DNA of 60,964 nucleotides from Cladosporium halotolerans. Lineage: Eukaryota. Below the pieces are notes generated by a model. The model did not search any database and was not told where the DNA came from. It saw nothing but the letters and a program-made list of their open reading frames with translations. The stretch is from contig NW_027191472.1 of NCBI RefSeq assembly GCF_011745625.1, positions 372,001 to 432,964 on the forward strand. The letters are read 5' to 3'. Position numbers and translations under genes: made by a program. Below, in pieces: positions 2,417-36,994 of this stretch. Position 1 is the first letter of the stretch. Each line of letters starts with the position of its first letter.

Positions 2417-4039
2417 CTAATCCTCCCACGGGAAGTCCGCATCCTCCACTCTATTGCAAGTCAAGTAACCCAACCCAGCCGGTCCGAACATGGTCAGGTC
2501 CAGCTCGAGGAAATTGCGCATCAATGGCCTGACAGCGTCCCGCGCCAAATTCTTCACCTCGTCCATTCTTCGCTCAAAGCGTCGCAGGTTGTCGCGCGTG
2601 TAGAGGTCTGGCGAGAGCTTGAGGAAGCGCTTGAGCTCGTCGTGCGGTAGGTACGAGGAGGCAGACGTCGAGCCGATGAGGCGGTATATCTTCCCTGTGT
2701 TGAGGGGACCGCTGGGCTGAGGATTGCTAGGCGGAGGCGGGACGCGCTGAGAGGCGAGGTGGTTCGTACTCCTACTTGCATTGCTCCTCGAATTGCTGCG
2801 GGATTCAGATGCGTTAGGTCGGACGGGTTCTTTCAGAATGCCGCTTGGGCCTGGTGTGGTATTCTCGGCGATCCATTGACGGAACAGACTCATAGCTAGC
2901 CAACTTAGGTAGTCGTTCGCTGGGGTGACACGCTCACCCCGGCTTGTTGTCAGAGTCAGACGCCAGAGCTTCATCTCCACGCGAGTCTTGCTCTCTTCCA
3001 GCTCATCGTACTTGTCTTCGATCAAGTCCATTACTGCAGCGTCGACTTGGTTGTTGAGTTGCGGTCGCGCTAGAGGCCATTGTCCGACCACATGAATGAG
3101 TGCTTCAGCGAAAATGGTGCGTGATCGGGCAAGGTAGCCCAGCTTAAGGTACGAAGGTGGATACTTCGCTATCTGCTTGAGCAACCTGGCGCCGAAGCGG
3201 AGCAGATGATGATCGACGCGCGTGCCAACAATCTCCAGCGCGTCGTACATGTCCGCCAAGTGGAGAAGGGCCTTGCATTCGGTGTAGGCGGTCGCGATAT
3301 TTACATTATCCAGAACGGGCGGGTACTGATACATCGTGCGAAACAAGTTGTCGTAATCCTTGAGTACTTCATCGCCAGGCTCAGTGGTAACACTCTGAGG
3401 TGTGCTTTCATTCAGATTCAGGGCCGAGAAATTGGTCATGCTCCGGAAAAAGCCTTCGTTCGACGTAGGGGGCTTATTGCGCACAGCTGGCGGGCCTTCT
3501 GCGCCGCCAAAAATCGAAGGCGGAGAGATATCCTGCACGAGCATAGGAACATCCTCGTCTCCAGCCGAGCGCCAATCCAAAATATAACTCCAACGCTTCT
3601 TCGGCTGCTCAATCGACGGCCTCCGATCCGTACTGCTGGTGCGCGTGCTGCTGCTGCCGGCCACGCTGCTTTCTCCAATAGGCGGCAGCCCATTTGCGCT
3701 CCGTATATCGTCCATGGCCCCTACGCGACTCCACTCGGCTCGCATACCAGCTTCGAAGAATCCTGAACATTGGCTCAAGATAAGACGGTGCAGCAAGTAT
3801 CTGTATTCCCTCCTGCCGCTGGCGTTTCTGAGCACGATCTCGACGTCGCCCGAGTGAGAGAAGACGGGAAACTCATTCTGTGGGACATGTCCGTTTGCGC
3901 CGCCATGATGTGTGCGCGCATGTCTGTGCCGTCTTGTCGCCGACCTGCCGGATGCGACTGAGGATGCGCGAGGCGCCGGAGCGCCGGAGGTGGGCGCTGG
4001 TATGTCGCCGTAGACCGGCGCCGGGTGTCGGGAGACCAT
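2417..4039 (-). CDS. Conserved fungal BTB/POZ-like domain protein
   Basis: 540-aa ORF with a BTB-like start (SGDVEIVL...YLLHRLILSQCSGFFEAGM) and later LLHLADMYDAL / IFAEALIHVVG helices typical of fungal BTB proteins. Confidence 0.7.
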   Translation of the reverse strand: MVSRHPAPVYGDIPAPTSGAPAPRASSVASGRSATRRHRHARTHHGGANGHVPQNEFPVFSHSGDVEIVLRNASGRREYRYLLHRLILSQCSGFFEAGMRAEWSRVGAMDDIRSANGLPPIGESSVAGSSSTRTSSTDRRPSIEQPKKRWSYILDWRSAGDEDVPMLVQDISPPSIFGGAEGPPAVRNKPPTSNEGFFRSMTNFSALNLNESTPQSVTTEPGDEVLKDYDNLFRTMYQYPPVLDNVNIATAYTECKALLHLADMYDALEIVGTRVDHHLLRFGARLLKQIAKYPPSYLKLGYLARSRTIFAEALIHVVGQWPLARPQLNNQVDAAVMDLIEDKYDELEESKTRVEMKLWRLTLTTSRGERVTPANDYLSWLAMSLFRQWIAENTTPGPSGILKEPVRPNASESRSNSRSNASRSTNHLASQRVPPPPSNPQPSGPLNTGKIYRLIGSTSASSYLPHDELKRFLKLSPDLYTRDNLRRFERRMDEVKNLARDAVRPLMRNFLELDLTMFGPAGLGYLTCNRVEDADFPWED

Positions 4040-4631
4040 GACGGCGATATGAAAGCGTGCACACGGCGGTGCAGGCTATGCGCTGGAGGTCTAGGTGCCT
4101 TTGCGATCGGGTCCTGGGAGACTTCTCGTTGCGAGGCGCATGTCTTTCGGCTGGCGGATCATAGTCTGCCGTGCGTCTTCACGGGCATATGGCGGTAGTG
4201 GCGAAGCGACGACATGGAGATCGTGGCGAGAGGACTCGGTAAGGACAGGGTGGGAGGAAGAAGGCCAGTGTTAGCAGGGAGGACGAGGTGGACTCAGTGC
4301 CGACCATGGCCTCGTGCGAGGCGCCGTCCGTTAAGCGAGTCAAGGCCCCGCAGCAGCCAAACAGCTGCTGGGTGGCGTTGCCCTGCGCCTGTCCAGACGC
4401 CGTCCCTTGCATCTGACTGGCTGCAGCCAGGCACGCCGTCGAAGCCAACCATACCACAACCTGCTATATACTGATCCGTCGTCGAAACAGGCGATACTTG
4501 AGAGCCGTTCATTGCGAATTGGTACTATCCGACGGCGACATATCAGCTTGAGCCTATTTGACAACAGCATCGACACACCATACTCTACACAGTTCCTCAG
4601 ACACTCTGAGCCATCCATGTTCGATCTCCAA

Positions 4632-28723: not shown

Positions 28724-30803
28724 ATGGTGAAGGTGCGTCGCGGATATGGTGCGACCGACCGGGGTCCGTGAACGCTTGCGCTGACGGTGGAGCAGTTTCG
28801 ACGATCCCTCAAGAGCGACGGTGGGAAACACGATTCCGCCAAACCCGTGCAGATCTCCATCCCGCAGAAGGACGCAATTGCCATTGAGCCTCCCAAGAAG
28901 GTTTGTCCTCGCACCGCTCACTTCTCACCTCAATTAAACACCCGCCGCCCACCACCGCCCACGCCCCTCCGTGCCCCGCTGACCCGACCGGGACCCGCAG
29001 GTCATTAAAGCCCTCTACGACTATAACGCGCCCGCCGGCGAACCCTCGCACTACCTCTCCTTCTCCGCCGGCGACTTCCTGCACGTCGTGAGCCGCGAAA
29101 ACGACAGCGACTGGTACGAAGCCTGCAACCCGCTGCAGAACACCCGCGGCCTGGTCCCCGTCAGCTACTTCGACAACGTCGGCAAGACCGTGCGAGACAG
29201 CGCCGAGTCCACCAAATCCGCCAGCGCGACCCACGACAGCGGCTACGCCGAGGGAGCACACACGCCTGCTAGGAGCATTGGCGCTGGAAGAACGAGTGGC
29301 CCGAACGGACACCCTGGCATACCGCCAATGCCTGGACACAGGTCTAGCAAGTCCATTGGCAAGTCGGGCGGCGTCTACGGCATTGTCTCCTATGACTTTG
29401 TCGCGGAGCGCCCGGATGAGCTGGATGCGAAGGAGGGCGAGGCCATCATCGTCATTGCGCAGTCGAACCCGGAATGGTTCGTCGCGAAACCGATCACCCG
29501 GCTGGGAGGGCCAGGCTTGATTCCTGTGTCCTTCATTGAAATCCGAGACATGACGACCGGCAAGGCCGTGGAGGATCCTTTGGAAGCCGTGCAGAAGGCA
29601 GGCATACCGCGAGTGGAGGAGTGGAAGAAGATGGCCGCCGAGTACAAGAACACTAGCATTCCCCTCGGCAGCGTCTCCAGCAGCCAGCAGCAAGCGCAGG
29701 GTCTGGCACAAGGAATAGACCGCATGAGCTTGCAAAGTGGCCACCCACAAGCATCTGAAGGATATGGACATCAACGTACACCGAGCAACTACGGCTACCA
29801 GCAACAGCAAGCGCAGGGCCTTTACGCTCCTGTGCGAGCAGCCGTGCCGAAATACATTTACGTGGACGACAAGTTTCACTTTGTCGTGGAGTGCAAGCTG
29901 ACTAACAACGCTCATTGGGACCTGTCGAGAATATATGAAGATTTCTATGAGCTCCAGATTAACCTCATCAATGCCTTCCCCGAAGAAGCCGGCCAGGTGC
30001 CCGGCAAAGCGCGAACGCTGCCATACATGCCTGGACCCGTCAAGTTCGTCACCGACAACATCAGCGAAGGCCGAAGAGAAAACCTGGACCAATACTTGCG
30101 CGAGCTTCTCGGCATGGCCCAACACATCACCTGCTCCTCACTCGTCCGAAATTTCTTCGCACCCCGCGAAGGCGACTACGAAGTCGACCCCAGCGTCGCA
30201 GACCTCAACGAACACGCCCGATCAGCCGAGCCCCAGCAGCGCTACTCGCAAGCATCCCAGAACTCCTACGGCCAGGGCGCCTACTCCATGCACAGCCACT
30301 CCCAGTCCCGCCAGGGCTCCAACGCCGGCATGCACCAGCACTCCCAGAGCCAAGCCTCCAATAGCCCGTACACCCACCAGCGCGGCCAACCCTCCCTCTC
30401 CGCCGCCCCGCCCCAGCAACAACAAGGCGGCCATTACCGCTCCCCCTCCGAATTCACCCAGAACCCCGCCGCCGCCGCTCAGCAGGCGCCCACCGCCGCC
30501 CCCAGCTCCGGCCCCGTCAAGGTCAAGGCCTGGTTCGACCGCGAGACCTGCGTCGTCATCCGCATGCCGCCCCGCCGCCAGTTCAAATTCGACGACCTCT
30601 ACCAGAAGATCGTCGACCGGCGGAAACTGGAGTTCCGCGGTGCGGAGGGCGAGGGTTCCGGCGAAGAGGACCCTCAGCTAGACATCGAGTACCGCGACGA
30701 GGAGGCTGGGGAGTACTATCGTCTCGAGGGTGATGAGGATTTGGATATCGCTGTGGAGCGGAATGAGAAGTTGACGCTTGCTGTGAGGGTTGCGGGGTCT
30801 TGA
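28724..30803 (+). CDS. BEM1: Polarity scaffold Bem1/Scd2 (SH3-SH3-PX-PB1; introns 28733-28795, 28901-29000)
   Basis: Spliced product MVK-FRRSLKS...PPKK-VIKALYDY (SH3), then YDFVAERPDEL...AKPITRLGGPGLIPVSFIE, a PX domain (RIYEDFYELQ..LPYMPGP) and a PB1 domain (VKVK..IEYRDE). Confidence 0.93.
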
Positions 30804-32877: not shown

Positions 32878-34446
32878 ATGATCAACGACTCACCGGGCAG
32901 CCTCGTCTTCATCCGCATTTGCATCGTCGCCCTGCAATGCATTGGCCCGTGCTCCCTCGCGTGGACAGTATGGCTGGCATTCAATGTCATCACAAACAAG
33001 AAAGCCATTGGAAGCCTCCATTTGCCGGGACTACAAGCCTACGTTGTTGCGGAAGCAGTCTTCTATCTGTTCTTCCTATGGTTTCGCAGCCACCTCCAGC
33101 GTGAGGCGGTCCATCCGCCACTCAGTACGCGCGAAGAACGTCAGGCATTGGCTCAGAAAGTGCGTGGCGAGATACATGATCCGGATCGCTTCCTCTCCGG
33201 CTGGTTCCGGGGAGCCGATCCTGAAGACATTGGACGGGATGATCTGAGAAGTTTCTTGAACTGGTGCTTTTGGGAAGGGAGAGCTACCAAAGCAGATGCA
33301 GAGGAAATGGAGTCCTACGTCAATCTGGTTGAGGATATCACTGGTCGTCAGTTTCAGGAGAGCAAAGGCGGCGCTCACGCGCTGCGTCTGACACTTGATC
33401 CGATCGAGATGGATGCGAGGAGCTTGCTCTGGTACGGGATTGTCATGCTGATGGACCATGTTACTTCGGTACGATTTTGGTACTCGGGCTTCTCTTATCG
33501 CAGGACAGGTTTCATAGGTCCCTGGACCTTCCCACCTCGTCCCGGTACCCTGCTTGCCGGTGGTCGATCCCCAGCCAAGTCTCTCAGTTATTGGGTCCGT
33601 CCTCATACTTCGAAGACCAGGTTGCCAGTGCTCTTCATTCATGGCATTGGTATCGGGTTACATCCCTACGTTGAGTTGCTGTCGGGTATCAATGCGAACA
33701 ACCCAGCGGACGAATCGGTCGGTGTCCTGGCGCTCGAAATCCTACCCATCAGCTCCCGGATCACACACCCTATCCTCAGACGAGAGGCCTTCATTCAACA
33801 GATCACTCAGATCCTCGACTTGCATGGCTACGACAAATTCGTGCTAGCCTCACACTCGTACGGCTCGGTCTTTAGCACCTACATGCTGACCGACGACGAC
33901 CTGACATCCAGGATCAGCGCGACAATCCTGATCGATCCCGTCACAATTCTACTGCACATGCCTGATGTCGCCTTCAACTTCACTGTGCGAAAGCCAAGGA
34001 CGGCAAACGAATGGCAACTATGGTATTTTGCGTCGAAAGACCCCGGCGTCGCGCACACGCTTGGTCGGCACTTCTTCTGGTTCGAGAATTGCCTCTGGCG
34101 ACAGAGGATCAATCAGCTGGTCCAAGGTGGCATGCGCATCACGGTCTCCCTGGCCAGCAGGGATCTTATTGTTGACACCAAGGCCGTCGCACGATATCTG
34201 TTCAACGAGGAGGTCCCGGATCCAGATTTGATCGACTTACATGGACACCAGCACATGGAGCTCGAAACGCAACACCAGGAAGATGGGCTGGAGCCTTGGG
34301 AAAACAGGACGTGGCGAGGAAAGGGACTGGACTTGTTGTGGAACGTCGATCTGGATCACGCACAAGTCTTCGACGATGCTCCTGCGAGGGCGAAGCTTGT
34401 TCGAATCATCAATGAGTATTCTCAGCCTTGTGAAGACGGTGCTTGA
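32878..34446 (+). CDS. Alpha/beta hydrolase fold protein with N-terminal TM segments
   Basis: PVLFIHGIGIG oxyanion motif, SHSYG nucleophile elbow, LIDPV, and DLDHA catalytic His. Confidence 0.85.
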   Translation: MINDSPGSLVFIRICIVALQCIGPCSLAWTVWLAFNVITNKKAIGSLHLPGLQAYVVAEAVFYLFFLWFRSHLQREAVHPPLSTREERQALAQKVRGEIHDPDRFLSGWFRGADPEDIGRDDLRSFLNWCFWEGRATKADAEEMESYVNLVEDITGRQFQESKGGAHALRLTLDPIEMDARSLLWYGIVMLMDHVTSVRFWYSGFSYRRTGFIGPWTFPPRPGTLLAGGRSPAKSLSYWVRPHTSKTRLPVLFIHGIGIGLHPYVELLSGINANNPADESVGVLALEILPISSRITHPILRREAFIQQITQILDLHGYDKFVLASHSYGSVFSTYMLTDDDLTSRISATILIDPVTILLHMPDVAFNFTVRKPRTANEWQLWYFASKDPGVAHTLGRHFFWFENCLWRQRINQLVQGGMRITVSLASRDLIVDTKAVARYLFNEEVPDPDLIDLHGHQHMELETQHQEDGLEPWENRTWRGKGLDLLWNVDLDHAQVFDDAPARAKLVRIINEYSQPCEDGA

Positions 34447-34591
34447 AATGGATCGACTACATACTACAAAGTGACATATAACTAATTAAAAGCGCCTTGG
34501 CGTTTCTCTTCCCAGGCCGTAGACACGTGCAGGGTCATGATGAGGAGACGATTGGCCTCGTAAAACCAACTCTGACAGCTCACTCGACCGA

Positions 34592-35404
34592 CTAGTCGTC
34601 AAGCACATACGTGCCGCCGTACTTGTTTCCGTTGTGCGCACGCGCATTGCCCAGAGTCTTGATATCCTCGTACGTGTTGGAAGATGACATGATCTGGCCC
34701 TTGTAGTCCTTGTCGACGTGATCTCCTTGGAGCGACTTGGCAGTGTCAGCTGTTGTGATGCCAGCGTATCTATGCCCAGTCGTCTTGGTCAAAACAGCTT
34801 CATAGAAGACCGGATCAACCTTCCTTGCCACGTCTTGGAGAACCTGGACGTTGGGATCTGACTTCTCCGCGTCGGTCTTCATCAACTCGCCAGCGTCCCT
34901 CTGCGCTTGCTTCTGGAGCTCCGGCTTCAGGCTCGCTGCGATGCGTTCCAGCTCCTCAATCTCGAACTGCACGCCTTCGGTAATCTTCACGACCCTGTCC
35001 TTCTCATGCAGCGCCCAAACGACCTTCCTGCCAAATGACACCTTCACCTTCCGCAAACTCAACGTCTGCACTTTGTCCGTCAGATTTGCAACGCCATCGT
35101 CGCCAGACGACTGCCCCTGATACTTCTCAGCAGTCTCGCACATCCTCTCCAGCTTCACATTGATGCTCTCCAAGGCTGTCTTGGCCAACTTGCCGTCCTT
35201 GGCTTCGCCTTTGGTCGCGCTGTCTTTGTACACTTCTTCCCAGCGCCGGAGCCGCGCCCCGAGCAGCGCGATGTGCAGTGCCGCTTCTTGGTAGTCTTTG
35301 CTGCAGTTCTTGCCGGCGTCGAGGCGGGCGAAGGTGTTCATGCAGATGTCGAAGATCCCCGCGAGCCCGATGCCGCCGATTACGAGGCCTGCTGCTTCGG
35401 CCAT
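34592..35404 (-). CDS. HET-S-like protein: HeLo membrane-targeting domain plus C-terminal HET-s-related amyloid (prion-forming) domain
   Basis: The N-terminus MAEAAGLVIGGIGLAGIFDICMNTFARLDAGKNCSKDY...ARLRRW is colinear with HET-S as recalled. It contains the HeLo KVVWALHEK motif, two C-terminal 21-aa pseudo-repeats and a GNKYGG tail. Confidence 0.88.
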   Translation of the reverse strand: MAEAAGLVIGGIGLAGIFDICMNTFARLDAGKNCSKDYQEAALHIALLGARLRRWEEVYKDSATKGEAKDGKLAKTALESINVKLERMCETAEKYQGQSSGDDGVANLTDKVQTLSLRKVKVSFGRKVVWALHEKDRVVKITEGVQFEIEELERIAASLKPELQKQAQRDAGELMKTDAEKSDPNVQVLQDVARKVDPVFYEAVLTKTTGHRYAGITTADTAKSLQGDHVDKDYKGQIMSSSNTYEDIKTLGNARAHNGNKYGGTYVLDD

Positions 35405-36166
35405 GGTGTTTGATGAATGGGTACTAACTTTGGCTGAGGTAGGAGTATGTCGAGGGAGTATAGATAGTGTCAGGGACTGTTGATAGCAGAGGTGGGACCG
35501 GGCGAGATCAGCCAAACAGCACCAGACCAGGTACTATATATGTCACATCAAGCGGCTCAGCCTCTTTCAAGGTTGCCTTGTCTTGCGGTAACTGCATCGT
35601 TCCCCTCAGCCTCGTCGACGCAGCACGGCGCTTGCGGCGAGGCTGAAGGATGCGCTGGCAGTCTAGGCGCGCCACAGCGCCTTAGGCCCCGTGAGAGGAG
35701 GCACAGCTTGAATGCAGCACCTGGGGAGGAAAGCTAGGCTTGTTCCGACGGCATTAATGAGACGGTGGGGTGAGATAGCTGTGTAGGTATCCTGCATGTA
35801 CGCGGCGTACAGCAGCAGCAGTCGACTTCAGACTGGGAAGAGAGGCAAACACAGGGTGGTGCCATGGGCAGACAGCTGAAACAGCATTCGAGAGGCGTCG
35901 TTTTCCATTAGTTTTTGCAAATGTCAATGATAGGCTGGCGTGAACTTTATCCGATGAGCGCAGCAAGCACACGGCAACGATACCTAGAAATACGGAATGG
36001 AAAGGATGGGTTTCTTCCAGCATGTAAATTCGTTGTTTGCTGACATCACCGCGGAAGGCCAGACAAAGCTTTCCGTCATCGGACTGCACCTTTGCCAACA
36101 ACACAACACGAGATATTGTGGTACAAATTACGGTGGGACCTCCCTTTGCAAATCAAGAGTGGAAGA

Positions 36167-36994
36167 ATGTCTAAGATTGACGGTGGCAAGAATGTTGCCG
36201 ACGACATCAACATCGTCTCTCATTTCCTCGCCTTCGAGCAGATCAAAAACATCCAAACTCACAACCCGGTAGACTGCATAGTCATCTGCGCATCTTCAGT
36301 CCTCTACCAAGCTTCGCACGTATTCTCAGCCCTCGAGAAACGACCCTCGCTGGCGAAAAACCTAGTCCTTGTTGGCGGCATTGGCCACTCAACCTCCCTC
36401 ATCTACGAAGCCGTAGAACGACATCCGACCTTCCACGCGATCAAAGACCATGTGACAGGTCTGCCGGAAGCTCAAGTTCTGCTGCAAATTCTCGAACGTT
36501 TCTTCGATCTGGACGGTATCGAGAACAACGGCTGCCGCGTCTTGATCGAAGATCGATCGACCAACTGTGGCGCGAATGCCGTCGAGACTAGGAAGGTGCT
36601 CGAGGGAGTTAGGATTCCAGATCCAGGTTCCTGTATCTTTGTTCAGGACCCGACGATGTCTTTGCGGACGCTCGCGAGTTTCGAGAAGGCGTACGGAGAT
36701 CTGCCGGTGGACAAGCGCCCGAGGTTTTCGGCTTGCCCGGTCATCGTGCCCCGGATGCGGATGGAGGGTGAACAGCTGGAGTATGTGTTGGATGAAAGCC
36801 GTGAGATCAGGAAGGAGGATATGTGGGAAACTAAACGATTCTGCGAGCTGCTGGTCGGGGAGGTGGCAAGGCTGACAGATGATGAGAATGGGTACGGGCC
36901 GAGGGGTAAGGGGTTCATTGGGCATGTTGACGTGCCGGTTGAGGTGCAGGAAGCAGCGAAGAAGATCAGGGAGAGGCTTGGGGTGAGTAGATGA
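36167..36994 (+). CDS. DUF218 / YdcF-like protein
   Basis: GGIGHST, EDRSTNCGANA, VQDPTMSLRT and RLTDDENGYGPRGKGFIGHVDVP motifs. Intronless. Confidence 0.85.
   Translation: MSKIDGGKNVADDINIVSHFLAFEQIKNIQTHNPVDCIVICASSVLYQASHVFSALEKRPSLAKNLVLVGGIGHSTSLIYEAVERHPTFHAIKDHVTGLPEAQVLLQILERFFDLDGIENNGCRVLIEDRSTNCGANAVETRKVLEGVRIPDPGSCIFVQDPTMSLRTLASFEKAYGDLPVDKRPRFSACPVIVPRMRMEGEQLEYVLDESREIRKEDMWETKRFCELLVGEVARLTDDENGYGPRGKGFIGHVDVPVEVQEAAKKIRERLGVSR

What the first reader, a model, noticed from the sequence alone, without database searches (positions are those of the whole stretch)
34592..35404. HET-S-like amyloid-activated cell-death executor with a divergent two-repeat prion domain
Seen: a 270-aa intronless protein. 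Its first 38 residues align without gaps to the HET-S pore-forming helix region as recalled (G10, G13, A15-G16, F18, C21, F25, G31, D37-Y38). Position 33 is Asn, not the Pro of the inactive HET-s prion allele. The C-terminus has R1 GHRYAGITTADTAKSLQGDHV, an 11-aa loop, R2 SNTYEDIKTLGNARAHNGNKY, and the tail GGTYVLDD. Established: HET-s/HRAM domains form beta-solenoid amyloids from two 21-aa repeats and end in GGKGFWDN. Here both repeats have Tyr at position 4 and the tail lacks the F-W pair important for HET-s prion propagation. Inference: a functional HeLo toxin with a possibly distinct amyloid signalling specificity.
Basis: partly seen in the sequence, partly recalled or inferred. Interest (0 to 1): 0.75.

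Follow-up and report, generated by a model that had tools for sequence, protein, structure and literature searches.

The report
HET-S-type fungal cell-death protein, HRAM3 class
This fungal gene encodes an ordinary member of a known family of suicide proteins, a membrane-attacking domain held in check by a short tail that probably switches it on by folding into an amyloid, and here it sits without the usual neighbouring receptor gene.

Summary
Window 34592-35404, minus strand, is an uninterrupted 270-aa ORF. Residues 6-175 match Pfam HeLo (E 1.2e-14) and residues 1-205 align to the HET-s/HET-S crystal chains from residue 1. Its last 62 residues are two 21-aa pseudo-repeats, an 11-aa loop and a YGG tail.

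The tail is not a new motif. It has the published features of HET-s-related amyloid motifs (Daskalov 2015) and fits the HRAM3 subfamily best: His at position 3 of r1, Tyr at position 5 of both repeats, Gly at position 19. Most of 150 relatives from a 1.84-billion-protein search carry the same tail. One of them, Dothistroma DOTSEDRAFT_73817, is already in the published HRAM dataset. The exact protein is already in NCBI and UniRef.

An AlphaFold2 model (pLDDT 87) matches the HET-s HeLo domain (Z 18.5-19.1). Its tail is a two-rung solenoid like HET-s and HELLF fibrils (Z 5.3-6.1).

No NLR gene or single-repeat r0 motif lies in the 61-kb window, nor within ±10 kb in two relatives. This arrangement is known from 57 of 155 published cases.

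Strain variants are 18 synonymous to 2 non-synonymous, and contigs from RNA libraries cover the gene unspliced.

Verdict: a real, probably functional, new member of a known kind, of low interest.

The parts
34592..35404 (-). Complete intronless CDS of the 270-aa HeLo + HRAM protein (P0001); stop codon at 34592-34594
   Evidence: It aligns end to end with 8 homologues. A 1083-nt contig from a library guessed to be RNA is collinear with it, with 0 gaps and no joints.
35303..35404 (-). Residues 1-34: Gly/Ala-rich hydrophobic N-terminal segment, equivalent to the HET-S region that becomes the membrane-inserting helix
   Evidence: Ungapped alignment to 2wvo_A from residue 1. The most hydrophobic 19-mer of the protein is residues 4-22, Kyte-Doolittle 1.94. 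In 99 relatives: G10 in 90, F18 in 80, C21 in 79, F25 in 78.
34880..35389 (-). HeLo domain (Pfam PF14479 match, residues 6-175); the helical bundle continues to about residue 207 in the model
   Evidence: E 1.2e-14, 55.1 bits; 2wvn 9.6e-13; helices H9-27 to H198-207. Z 18.5-19.1 to 2wvq, 2wvn and 2wvo.
34718..34780 (-). Pseudo-repeat r1, residues 209-229 (TGHRYAGITTADTAKSLQGDH): H211 = position 3, Y213 = 5, I216 = 8, T218 = 10, K223 = 15, G227 = 19
   Evidence: Predicted strands at 210-214 and 223-226.
34685..34717 (-). 11-residue loop between the repeats (VDKDYKGQIMS), residues 230-240
   Evidence: Eleven residues is the commonest loop length, in 35 of 120 relatives with two repeats. The published range is 6-18.
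34622..34684 (-). Pseudo-repeat r2, residues 241-261 (SSNTYEDIKTLGNARAHNGNK): N243 = position 3, Y245 = 5, I248 = 8, T250 = 10, R255 = 15, G259 = 19
   Evidence: Predicted strands at 242-246 and 255-258, exactly 32 residues after those of r1. Weak PF11558 match over r2 plus tail.
34595..34621 (-). C-terminal tail YGGTYVLDD, residues 262-270: aromatic plus diglycine, then YVLDD
   Evidence: In A2, 262 is Y/F in 84 of 99 and G263 is in 89 of 99. Position 268 is F in 58, W in 19 and L in 13. Similar tails occur in P0024 (YGGKYVLDD), P0016 and P0017, and FGGKSVLDD appears in the published table.

Best explanation
The gene encodes a HET-S-type regulated cell-death effector of an ascomycete. The nearest named relatives are Cladosporium and Dothistroma proteins, so it is probably a Dothideomycete. 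An N-terminal HeLo domain is the executioner: a helical bundle whose first ~34 hydrophobic residues can insert into the membrane. It is held inactive until the C-terminal 62 residues fold into a two-rung beta-solenoid amyloid built from two 21-residue pseudo-repeats of the HRAM family, closest to subfamily HRAM3. By analogy with NWD2/HET-S, the trigger would be an NLR receptor carrying one copy of the same motif (r0) at its N-terminus. That receptor oligomerises on ligand binding and templates the effector's tail. Here the NLR is not next door, so it must be encoded elsewhere in the genome. Shown here: the ORF, the HeLo family and predicted fold, the HRAM repeat architecture and its conservation, the absence of a linked NLR, purifying selection, and presence in RNA libraries. 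Inferred: amyloid formation, pore formation and cell death, the existence of an unlinked NLR partner, and a cross-seeding barrier towards HRAM1 (HET-s).
For: HeLo domain:
- PF14479 E 1.2e-14, 55.1 bits against a cutoff of 23.2.
- phmmer to the HET-s and HET-S crystal chains gives 9.6e-13 and 8e-12, aligned from residue 1.
- AlphaFold2 model: pLDDT 87.4, pTM 0.80.
- Foldseek top 4 hits are all HET-s/HET-S N-terminal domains, E 8e-6 to 3e-5.
- VIA-align gives Z 18.5-19.1 for these; the next unrelated chain is 8.4.

Tail, against the published HRAM criteria (PMC4518210 Results):
- Two 21-aa repeats with an 11-aa loop (published range 6-18).
- Gly at position 19 in both repeats, 99 of 99 relatives.
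- K/R at position 15; Y, I, T at positions 5, 8, 10; an aromatic plus GG tail.
- His at position 3 of r1, which is the HRAM3 mark.

Fit to subfamily: with position 3 masked, r1 and r2 fit the His/His group (n=47) at 34.4 and 41.9 bits. They fit the Asn/Asn group (n=10) at only 25.2 and 20.8 bits.

Relatives:
- 385 relatives at E<=1e-3 in 1.84 billion representatives.
- Of 157 session proteins, 120 have a two-repeat tail: 53 His/His, 14 His/Asn, 10 Asn/Asn.
- P0015 is DOTSEDRAFT_73817. Its tail is the row jgi_Dotse1_73817 of the published HRAM table.

Predicted tail structure:
- pLDDT is 81-96 per 10-residue block. Four strand segments per repeat sit at an exact 32-residue offset.
- It superposes on HET-s fibril models 2lbu (Z 6.1, rmsd 2.8, 61 aligned) and 2mus (Z 5.9), on HELLF 6eka (Z 5.7, rmsd 2.1, 52 of 53) and on 2rnm (Z 5.3).

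Gene in use:
- 20 distinct CDS variants in contigs of three runs are 18 synonymous and 2 non-synonymous.
- Contigs from two metatranscriptome libraries and one guessed-RNA library lie only within 34439-35521, with no gaps or joints.

Pairing with NLRs: HRAM3-type HeLo proteins of other species do have adjacent NLRs with matching r0 motifs, for example the rows Coclu2_34207, KFZ24429 and Wesor1_271730.
Against: - No partner was found. None of the 20 longest of 148 listed window ORFs is NACHT or NB-ARC.
- A six-frame pattern scan for an HRAM3-like repeat found only r1 and r2 in the 61-kb window, and only the HeLo tails in L001-L007 (15 hits, all in HeLo tails).
- The scanned ORFs within ±10 kb in two relatives (13 of 27 in L001, 8 of 27 in L002) include no NLR.
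- A word-based search for longer proteins sharing the tail found nothing, but this is weak because a 21-aa motif cannot reach the E cut-off.
- The tail fails Pfam PF11558: E 0.1, 13 bits against 32.2.
- r2 has Asn, not His, at position 3.
- Core positions 16 and 18 are S/Q in r1 and A/N in r2, not hydrophobic. N/Q at position 18 is, however, the commonest state in relatives.
- The tail has Y266 and L268 where HET-s has F and W.
- All structural evidence is prediction. AlphaFold2 was trained on HET-s fibril structures and may reproduce them from memory.
- Foldseek E-values for the tail alone are weak, 0.24-1.3.
- No experiment on any HRAM3 motif turned up in the library search for 'HRAM3'.
Confidence: 0.75

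Rival explanations
1. Same protein, but not NLR-controlled. The unlinked HeLo-HRAM gene acts as a self-propagating prion or allorecognition element like het-s/het-S, or is triggered by a non-NLR amyloid seed.
For: No NLR and no r0 motif in the 61-kb window, nor within ±10 kb in two relatives. The published Dothistroma relative also has no r0 listed. 57 of 155 published HRAM effectors lack an adjacent NLR. Natural variants exist: T114M and V120M.
Against: The two amino-acid variants lie in the HeLo linker region, not at position 33 or in the tail. 18 of 20 variants are synonymous, so there is no sign of the balanced, diversified alleles expected of an allorecognition locus. Unlinked NLR-HeLo pairs are described, for example 95 kb apart in Sphaerobolus (PMC9815663 passages).
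Confidence: 0.12
2. The tail is a relic or an ordinary folded cap, not an amyloid switch. The HeLo domain would then work constitutively, be regulated some other way, or have lost its death function.
For: Polar residues at core positions 16 and 18, and no F-W pair in the tail. PF11558 is not reached. AlphaFold2 folds the tail in a monomer with high confidence, which could be read as a stable intramolecular beta-domain.
Against: The two position-19 glycines are the only invariant columns across 99 relatives at 22-49% identity, not counting the 88% near-copy P0003. The repeat pattern, loop length and tail are conserved. Six of the 18 synonymous variants lie in codons 206-268, the tail region, and no non-synonymous one does. 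N/Q at position 18 is the family norm. HELLF keeps the fold at 17% identity to HET-s.
Confidence: 0.08
3. The tail is a new HRAM class with a private signalling specificity, outside HRAM1-5. This is the strong form of the first reader's 'divergent' reading.
For: The mixed signature His3 (r1) / Asn3 (r2) and the YVLDD tail are minority states: His/Asn in 14 of 120, and Leu at 268 in 13 of 99.
Against: Both repeats fit the His/His (HRAM3-like) matrices best with position 3 masked. The 44-47% identical orthologues have His in both repeats. The paper itself reports a blurred HRAM1/HRAM3 border, with 11 sequences moving between groups. Similar tails appear in the published table.
Confidence: 0.05

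Closest known systems
HRAM3-subfamily HeLo proteins (Daskalov, Dyrka & Saupe 2015, Sci Rep, PMC4518210), e.g. Dothistroma septosporum DOTSEDRAFT_73817; exemplar pair Cladophialophora psammophila W9WR11/W9XJW2 named in PMC5485727, Fig. 3 legend
   Same: Same architecture: a HeLo domain of about 200 aa followed by two 21-aa repeats. His at position 3 and an aromatic at position 5. An 11-aa loop of the type x-x-x-G/D-Y/W-x-G. A tail of the type YGG-x-x-[VI]-[FL]-DD. P0015, the Dothistroma protein, is a full-length hit at E 4e-34.
   Different: r2 has Asn (the HRAM1 state) instead of His at position 3. The tail has Thr265 where 72 of 99 relatives have K/R, and Leu268 where most have F or W. No adjacent NLR is present, whereas the Cladophialophora exemplar is a HeLo/NLR pair.
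HET-S/HET-s of Podospora anserina with NLR NWD2 (HRAM1; PDB 2wvn, 2wvo, 2rnm)
   Same: HeLo domain homologous from residue 1, with predicted fold Z 18.5-19.1. Two-repeat tail with Gly19 and R/K15, an in-register predicted two-rung solenoid (Z 5.3-6.1), and a YGG tail.
   Different: About 22-24% identity. The tail fails PF11558. It has His3/Tyr5 rather than Asn3/Ala-Val5, an 11-aa rather than 15-aa loop, and no F-W in the tail. The gene is not adjacent to an NLR, and no het-s-like Pro33 allele was seen.
HELLF / FNT1 of P. anserina (HRAM5; PDB 6eka)
   Same: The predicted tail superposes on the HELLF fibril rung pair (Z 5.7, rmsd 2.1, 52 of 53 residues). It shows that divergent HRAMs keep the solenoid fold while not cross-seeding (passages).
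   Different: HELLF has a HeLo-like (HELL) domain, not HeLo. The HRAM5 marks (the QxFG and QG sub-motifs) are absent here.
MLKL four-helix-bundle executioner with RHIM amyloid signalling (mammalian necroptosis)
   Same: Analogous logic: an amyloid motif upstream of a membrane-disrupting helical bundle. The MLKL executioner domain 6d74 aligns to the model at Z 7.0, which is in the range the tool calls unspecific for helical bundles.
   Different: No sequence homology was detected here. In that system the amyloid motif is on separate kinases, not on the executioner.

Membership tests
HeLo domain (Pfam PF14479) | Score above Pfam's gathering threshold | tested here: met
   55.1 bits against 23.2, E 1.2e-14, residues 6-175 matching profile positions 1-197 of 205.
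HeLo domain (Pfam PF14479) | Helical-bundle fold of the HET-s/HET-S N-terminal domain | tested here: met
   On a predicted model only. Foldseek top 4 hits are 2wvn, 2wvq and 2wvo, E 8e-6 to 3e-5, TM(target) 0.68-0.73. VIA-align Z 18.5-19.1, rmsd 3.1-3.4 over 184-190 residues, with the next hit at 8.4.
HeLo domain (Pfam PF14479) | Hydrophobic, Gly-rich N-terminal ~34 residues able to form the membrane-inserting helix | tested here: met
   Ungapped alignment to HET-S residues 1-38 with 13 identities. Residues 4-22 are the most hydrophobic 19-mer. That this segment inserts into membranes is recalled from HET-S work, not tested.
HeLo domain (Pfam PF14479) | Pore-forming or cell-death activity on activation | not testable with these tools
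   Needs expression and seeding assays.
HET-s-related amyloid motif (HRAM) superfamily, Daskalov 2015 | Two 21-aa pseudo-repeats at the C-terminus of a HeLo-type protein, joined by a 6-18 aa loop | tested here: met
   r1 209-229, loop of 11 aa, r2 241-261. Criteria taken from PMC4518210 Results.
HET-s-related amyloid motif (HRAM) superfamily, Daskalov 2015 | Conserved Gly at position 19 of each repeat | tested here: met
   G227 and G259 are the only invariant columns, 99 of 99.
HET-s-related amyloid motif (HRAM) superfamily, Daskalov 2015 | Hydrophobic residues (or Thr at position 10) at positions 5, 8, 10, 16 and 18; R/K preferred at 15 | tested here: inconclusive
   Positions 5 (Y/Y), 8 (I/I), 10 (T/T) and 15 (K/R) fit. 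Position 16 is S/A and position 18 is Q/N, which are polar. N/Q at 18 is the commonest state among His-type relatives: 29 of 76 in r1 and 26 of 76 in r2. [quoted passage not shown]
   YGGTYVLDD. Y/F at 262 in 84 of 99, G263 in 89 of 99.
HET-s-related amyloid motif (HRAM) superfamily, Daskalov 2015 | Beta-solenoid amyloid fold with r1 stacked in register on r2 | tested here: inconclusive
   The AlphaFold2 monomer gives strand segments at an exact 32-residue offset with pLDDT 81-96. It superposes on 2lbu, 2mus, 6eka and 2rnm at Z 5.3-6.1. This is prediction only and possibly memory of HET-s. Fibril formation was not tested.
HRAM3 subfamily | His at position 3 of the repeat (Asn in HRAM1, Gln in HRAM2) | tested here: inconclusive
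   r1 has H211 (met). r2 has N243 (not met, the HRAM1 state). The 44-47% identical orthologues have His in both repeats. In A2, r2 position 3 is His in 51 and Asn in 26 of 99. With position 3 masked, both repeats fit the His/His matrices better than the Asn/Asn ones. The paper reports a blurred HRAM1/HRAM3 border. I therefore file it as an HRAM superfamily member, closest to HRAM3.
Pfam HET-s_218-289 (PF11558, canonical HET-s prion domain) | Score above the gathering threshold | tested here: not met
   E 0.1, 13 bits against 32.2, over r2 plus tail only; no hit on the full-length protein. Only 38 of 155 published two-repeat HRAM proteins match this model.
NWD2/HET-S-type NLR-effector gene pair | Adjacent gene encoding an NLR whose N-terminus carries one matching repeat (r0) | tested here: not met
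   The neighbours are an alpha/beta-hydrolase (32878-34446, +) and a DUF218 protein (36167-36994, +). There is no NACHT or NB-ARC among the 20 ORFs scanned and no third repeat in any frame of the window. The rest of the genome is not held.

The most novel reading that the evidence does not exclude
In this Dothideomycete lineage (the window, the relatives L001/L002, and Dothistroma), the HeLo-HRAM3 effector has been uncoupled from any linked NLR for a long time. It has stayed under purifying selection in a housekeeping neighbourhood and appears in RNA libraries from environmental samples. It could therefore be a stand-alone amyloid-gated death switch whose trigger is not a cognate adjacent NLR. 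The trigger could be one or several distant NLRs sharing the motif, or a non-NLR seed. The His3/Asn3 hetero-repeat with a polar Gln/Asn ladder at core position 18 would give it a private seeding specificity.
Probability: 0.15. Interest if true: 0.45.

Novelty: new member of a known kind. Interest (0 to 1): 0.2.

Why it matters
It matters little for discovery. The gene adds one more HeLo/HRAM effector to a family catalogued in 2015, and the exact protein is already deposited in NCBI and UniRef. It has modest value in three ways. (1) It is a clean, expressed, selected example of an effector with no adjacent NLR, useful for asking how unlinked effectors are triggered. (2) In the library searched, HRAM3 has no reported fibril structure or prion assay, unlike HRAM1 and HRAM5, so any well-behaved HRAM3 tail is a reasonable candidate for testing fold conservation and cross-seeding barriers. 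(3) It corrects the idea that Tyr at the core position and a tail without F-W mark something new.

Tried and rejected
- Own-genome search: no genome is held for this window, so NLR N-termini could not be scanned.
- Word-based search for longer proteins sharing residues 205-270: 23 candidates, none at E<=10. A 21-aa motif cannot reach that cut-off, so this is not informative. The first attempt had an out-of-range E-value and was corrected.
- Searching the whole metagenome contigs behind L001-L003 for NACHT: the records are not held.
- Complex prediction with three copies of residues 205-270: no verdict, score 0.00 in two runs. The alignment was not used and the chain's fold was uncertain in at least one run. 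This counts neither for nor against self-assembly.
- Earlier-findings look-ups by sequence, by relatives and by HeLo words: nothing. By HRAM words: only unrelated bacterial or phage motif pairs.
- Weak Pfam hits on the full protein were rejected as below cutoff and lying on coiled helical regions: PTPlike_phytase at 22.3 bits against 27, and PI3K_P85_iSH2.
- phmmer of the tail alone against PDB gave only a ribosomal protein at E 0.33, rejected as chance.
- Chance ORF: rejected on family membership, conservation and the 18:2 synonymous bias.
- Assigning the repeats by re-clustering with the 310 published repeats was not done, because that needs sequences from the paper's supplement that are not session sequences.
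- The PDF supplement (file 1) of PMC4518210 was not read. The HRAM logos are figures and were not seen, so the HRAM3 criterion comes from the Results text only.
Full report
THE OBSERVATION

Translating 34592-35404 on the plus strand gives stops. On the minus strand it gives one open 270-aa frame from ATG to TAA. The finding gave no strand, so the feature is real but on the minus strand.

The frame needs no intron. It aligns end to end with eight database homologues, and from residue 1 with the HET-S crystal chain. A 1083-nt contig from a library guessed to be RNA covers 34439-35521 with no gap or joint.

The phmmer alignment to 2wvo_A (HET-S) is ungapped over residues 1-38. Residue 33 is Asn, against His in HET-S and Pro in HET-s. 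The repeat strings are as quoted.

WHAT THE N-TERMINAL PART IS

Pfam HeLo (PF14479) matches residues 6-175 at E 1.2e-14, 55.1 bits against a gathering score of 23.2. The three HET-s/HET-S N-terminal crystal chains are the only significant PDB sequence hits, at 9.6e-13 to 2.4e-10.

An AlphaFold2 model was built on a 99-sequence alignment (A2). It has mean pLDDT 87.4 and pTM 0.80.
- Foldseek's top four PDB hits are those same HET-s/HET-S domains, E 8e-6 to 3e-5.
- VIA-align gives Z 18.5-19.1, rmsd 3.1-3.4 over 184-190 residues. The next unrelated chain is at 8.4.

The most hydrophobic 19-mer of the protein is residues 4-22. G10, F18, C21 and F25 are kept in 78-90 of 99 relatives. In HET-S this segment becomes the membrane-inserting helix; that point is recalled knowledge, not tested here.

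In A2, position 33 is N in 36, H in 19, S in 9, R in 7 and K in 7, with other residues making up the rest. It is Pro in 0 of 99. Pro33 is therefore a special feature of one Podospora allele, not a general off-state.

WHAT THE TAIL IS

I read the Results, figure legends and tables of Daskalov, Dyrka & Saupe 2015 (PMC4518210), plus part 1 and a term search of its supplementary table. [quoted passage not shown]
- two 21-aa repeats joined by a 6-18 aa loop;
- Gly at position 19;
- hydrophobic residues at positions 5, 8, 10, 16 and 18 (Thr allowed at 10);
- R/K preferred at position 15;
- a following segment with aromatics and a diglycine.

Position 3 separates the subfamilies: Asn in HRAM1 (HET-s), Gln in HRAM2, His in HRAM3.

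In that numbering the window protein reads:
- r1 = 209-229, with H3, Y5, I8, T10, K15, S16, Q18, G19;
- an 11-aa loop;
- r2 = 241-261, with N3, Y5, I8, T10, R15, A16, N18, G19;
- the tail YGGTYVLDD.

Aromatic residues there, together with His3, are what the published table shows for many rows. Examples are the tails SGHSF...AGNY | VAHGYTGPISN | AQHRF...FGNQ | YGGKHIFDD (jgi_Dotse1_73817) and ...FGGKSVLDD.

The canonical Pfam model PF11558 is not reached: E 0.1, 13 bits against 32.2, over r2 plus tail only. That agrees with the paper's statement that only 38 of 155 two-repeat proteins match it.

RELATIVES

A word-indexed search found 8 homologues. One is 99% identical, one 88%, and six are 44-47%. 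All have both repeats, and the 44-47% group has His at position 3 of both.

A full HMMER scan of 1.84 billion representatives gave 385 hits at E<=1e-3, 110 at <=1e-10 and 11 at <=1e-30.

I applied an ad hoc two-repeat finder of my own to all 157 session proteins. It rewards the HRAM pattern, so it is partly circular. 120 proteins have a two-repeat tail. The other 37 are fragments, have longer C-termini, or were not resolved. Among the 120:
- position 3 of r1/r2 is His/His in 53, His/Asn in 14 (including the query and its two near-copies), Asn/Asn in 10, His/Ser in 7, and other in 36;
- position 5 is aromatic in both repeats in 74;
- the commonest loop length is 11 residues, in 35.

From these rows I chose 99 for alignment A2 (98 of the 120 plus P0020, which the finder had mis-placed). 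In the independent MAFFT alignment of those 99, G227 and G259 are the only invariant columns. Further counts from A2:
- r1 position 3 is His in 75;
- r2 position 3 is His in 51 and Asn in 26;
- tail position 268 is F in 58, W in 19 and L in 13.

With position 3 masked, the query's repeats were scored against matrices from the two groups.

| Repeat | His/His group (n=47) | Asn/Asn group (n=10) |
|---|---|---|
| r1 | 34.4 bits | 25.2 bits |
| r2 | 41.9 bits | 20.8 bits |

Each repeat fits its own repeat order best, and 0 of 5000 shuffles reach the observed scores.

P0015 (E 4e-34) is DOTSEDRAFT_73817 of Dothistroma septosporum. P0011 (46% identity) is from Cladosporium fusiforme. The exact window protein is already held by NCBI and UniRef.

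The tail is therefore an HRAM, closest to HRAM3. The Asn in r2 is the HRAM1 state. The paper itself calls the HRAM1/HRAM3 border blurred.

PREDICTED STRUCTURE OF THE TAIL

In the AlphaFold2 model the tail has pLDDT 81-96 per 10-residue block. Its strand segments are at 210-214, 217-218, 223-226 and 229-230. They repeat exactly 32 residues later, at 242-246, 249-250, 255-258 and 261-262. This is the in-register two-rung arrangement.

It superposes on:
- HET-s fibril models 2lbu (Z 6.1, rmsd 2.8, 61 aligned) and 2mus (Z 5.9);
- the HELLF fibril 6eka (Z 5.7, rmsd 2.1, 52 of 53);
- 2rnm (Z 5.3).

Foldseek E-values for these short matches are weak, 0.24-1.3. This is prediction by a network trained on HET-s, so I count it as compatible, not as proof.

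SURROUNDINGS

The gene lies among housekeeping genes.
- It lies tail to tail (convergent) with an alpha/beta-hydrolase gene (32878-34446, +), 145 bp away.
- It is divergent from a DUF218 gene (36167-36994, +).
- Further out are acetolactate decarboxylase-like, seryl-tRNA synthetase, SPB4 helicase, chitin synthase, Vps36, SAC3 and SH3-PX genes.

I scanned the 20 longest of 148 listed ORFs. None is NACHT or NB-ARC. Two had no family: 2417-4075 (-), and 28809-30137 (-), which is antisense to the SH3-PX gene.

A six-frame scan of the whole window and of seven related metagenome loci for an HRAM3-like repeat found 15 matches. All of them are r1 or r2 of the HeLo genes.

In two relatives with ±10 kb of flank (L001, L002; HeLo 45% identical) the neighbours are HIT, EF-hand, methyltransferase, amidase and zinc-finger transcription-factor genes, plus ORFs with no family. 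There is no NLR. I scanned 13 of 27 ORFs in L001 and 8 of 27 in L002.

The hydrolase neighbour has a 68% identical orthologue about 8 kb from the HeLo gene in L001. The gene is therefore an old resident of this region, and it evolves faster than its neighbour.

The published table lists no r0 for the Dothistroma relative. Lack of an adjacent NLR is known: only 98 of 155 cases had one. Unlinked pairs have also been suggested (PMC9815663 passages).

I could not see its sequence.

IS THE GENE IN USE?

Twenty runs hold the stretch or a part of it, 14 of them half its words or more. Contigs of two metatranscriptome libraries (X15, X16) and one guessed-RNA library (X12) lie only within 34439-35521. 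A DNA-like contig (X1) runs through the whole 1.6 kb laid. The tool warns that such contigs do not prove transcription, so this is a weak hint.

Their 20 distinct differences inside the CDS are 18 synonymous and 2 non-synonymous (T114M, V120M). Six of the synonymous ones lie in codons 206-268, the tail region. That is strong purifying selection, with the caveat that some contigs have low depth.

MECHANISM

By homology with HET-S, the tail is unfolded in the resting protein. A seed with the same motif templates it into the solenoid. This destabilises the HeLo bundle and frees the N-terminal helix, which inserts into the membrane and kills the cell. The seed would normally be the r0 repeat of an oligomerised NLR.

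Work on HELLF (HRAM5) shows that HRAM subfamilies keep the fold but do not cross-seed, and that subfamily-specific side chains set the barrier (bioRxiv 10.1101/2020.07.06.188508, passages). Specificity distinct from HET-s is therefore likely, but inferred.

A full-text search for 'HRAM3' found six papers. Only three are relevant: the 2015 paper, the 2017 review PMC5485727 and the 2022 survey PMC9815663. By listing and passages, none reports an HRAM3 fibril structure or prion assay. Subscription journals are not covered.

VERDICT

The 'divergent' domain is the known HRAM3-type motif, and the architecture without an adjacent NLR is also known. This is a new member of a known kind, and interest is low.

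Noticed in passing
window 32878-34446 (+) and L001:212-1816: The alpha/beta-hydrolase gene lying tail to tail with the HeLo gene has a 68% identical orthologue about 8 kb from the HeLo orthologue (45% identical) in a related metagenome contig. There is loose microsynteny, and the HeLo gene evolves faster than its neighbour.
   Followed up: partly
P0003 (88% identical homologue, 301 aa): It carries a 31-residue N-terminal extension absent from all other homologues. This is probably a mis-called start codon in that record.
   Followed up: no
P0061 (1012 aa; representative search): A long protein whose residues 3-202 match the HeLo domain (E 3.8e-16). It is presumably a HeLo domain fused to an NLR-type protein, the alternative architecture described in the literature. 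Its domains were not scanned.
   Followed up: no
window 2417-4075 (-): A 552-aa stop-to-stop ORF with no Pfam family at E<=1e-3. Unexplained.
   Followed up: no
model of P0001, residues 11-196: Beyond HET-s, the HeLo model aligns to the MLKL executioner domain (6d74, Z 7.0) and to the coiled-coil domain of the plant NLR NRC2 (8xuq, Z 6.4). This is consistent with the proposed HeLo/MLKL/CC relationship, but it is within the Z range the tool calls unspecific for helical bundles.
   Followed up: no
window 34300-35900; runs X7-X20: Near-identical copies of the gene occur in urban, root, sediment and plankton metagenome or metatranscriptome runs from several studies. The fungus or close relatives seem environmentally widespread.
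   Followed up: partly
It is a candidate to check for an N-terminal r0 repeat matching this effector.
   Followed up: no
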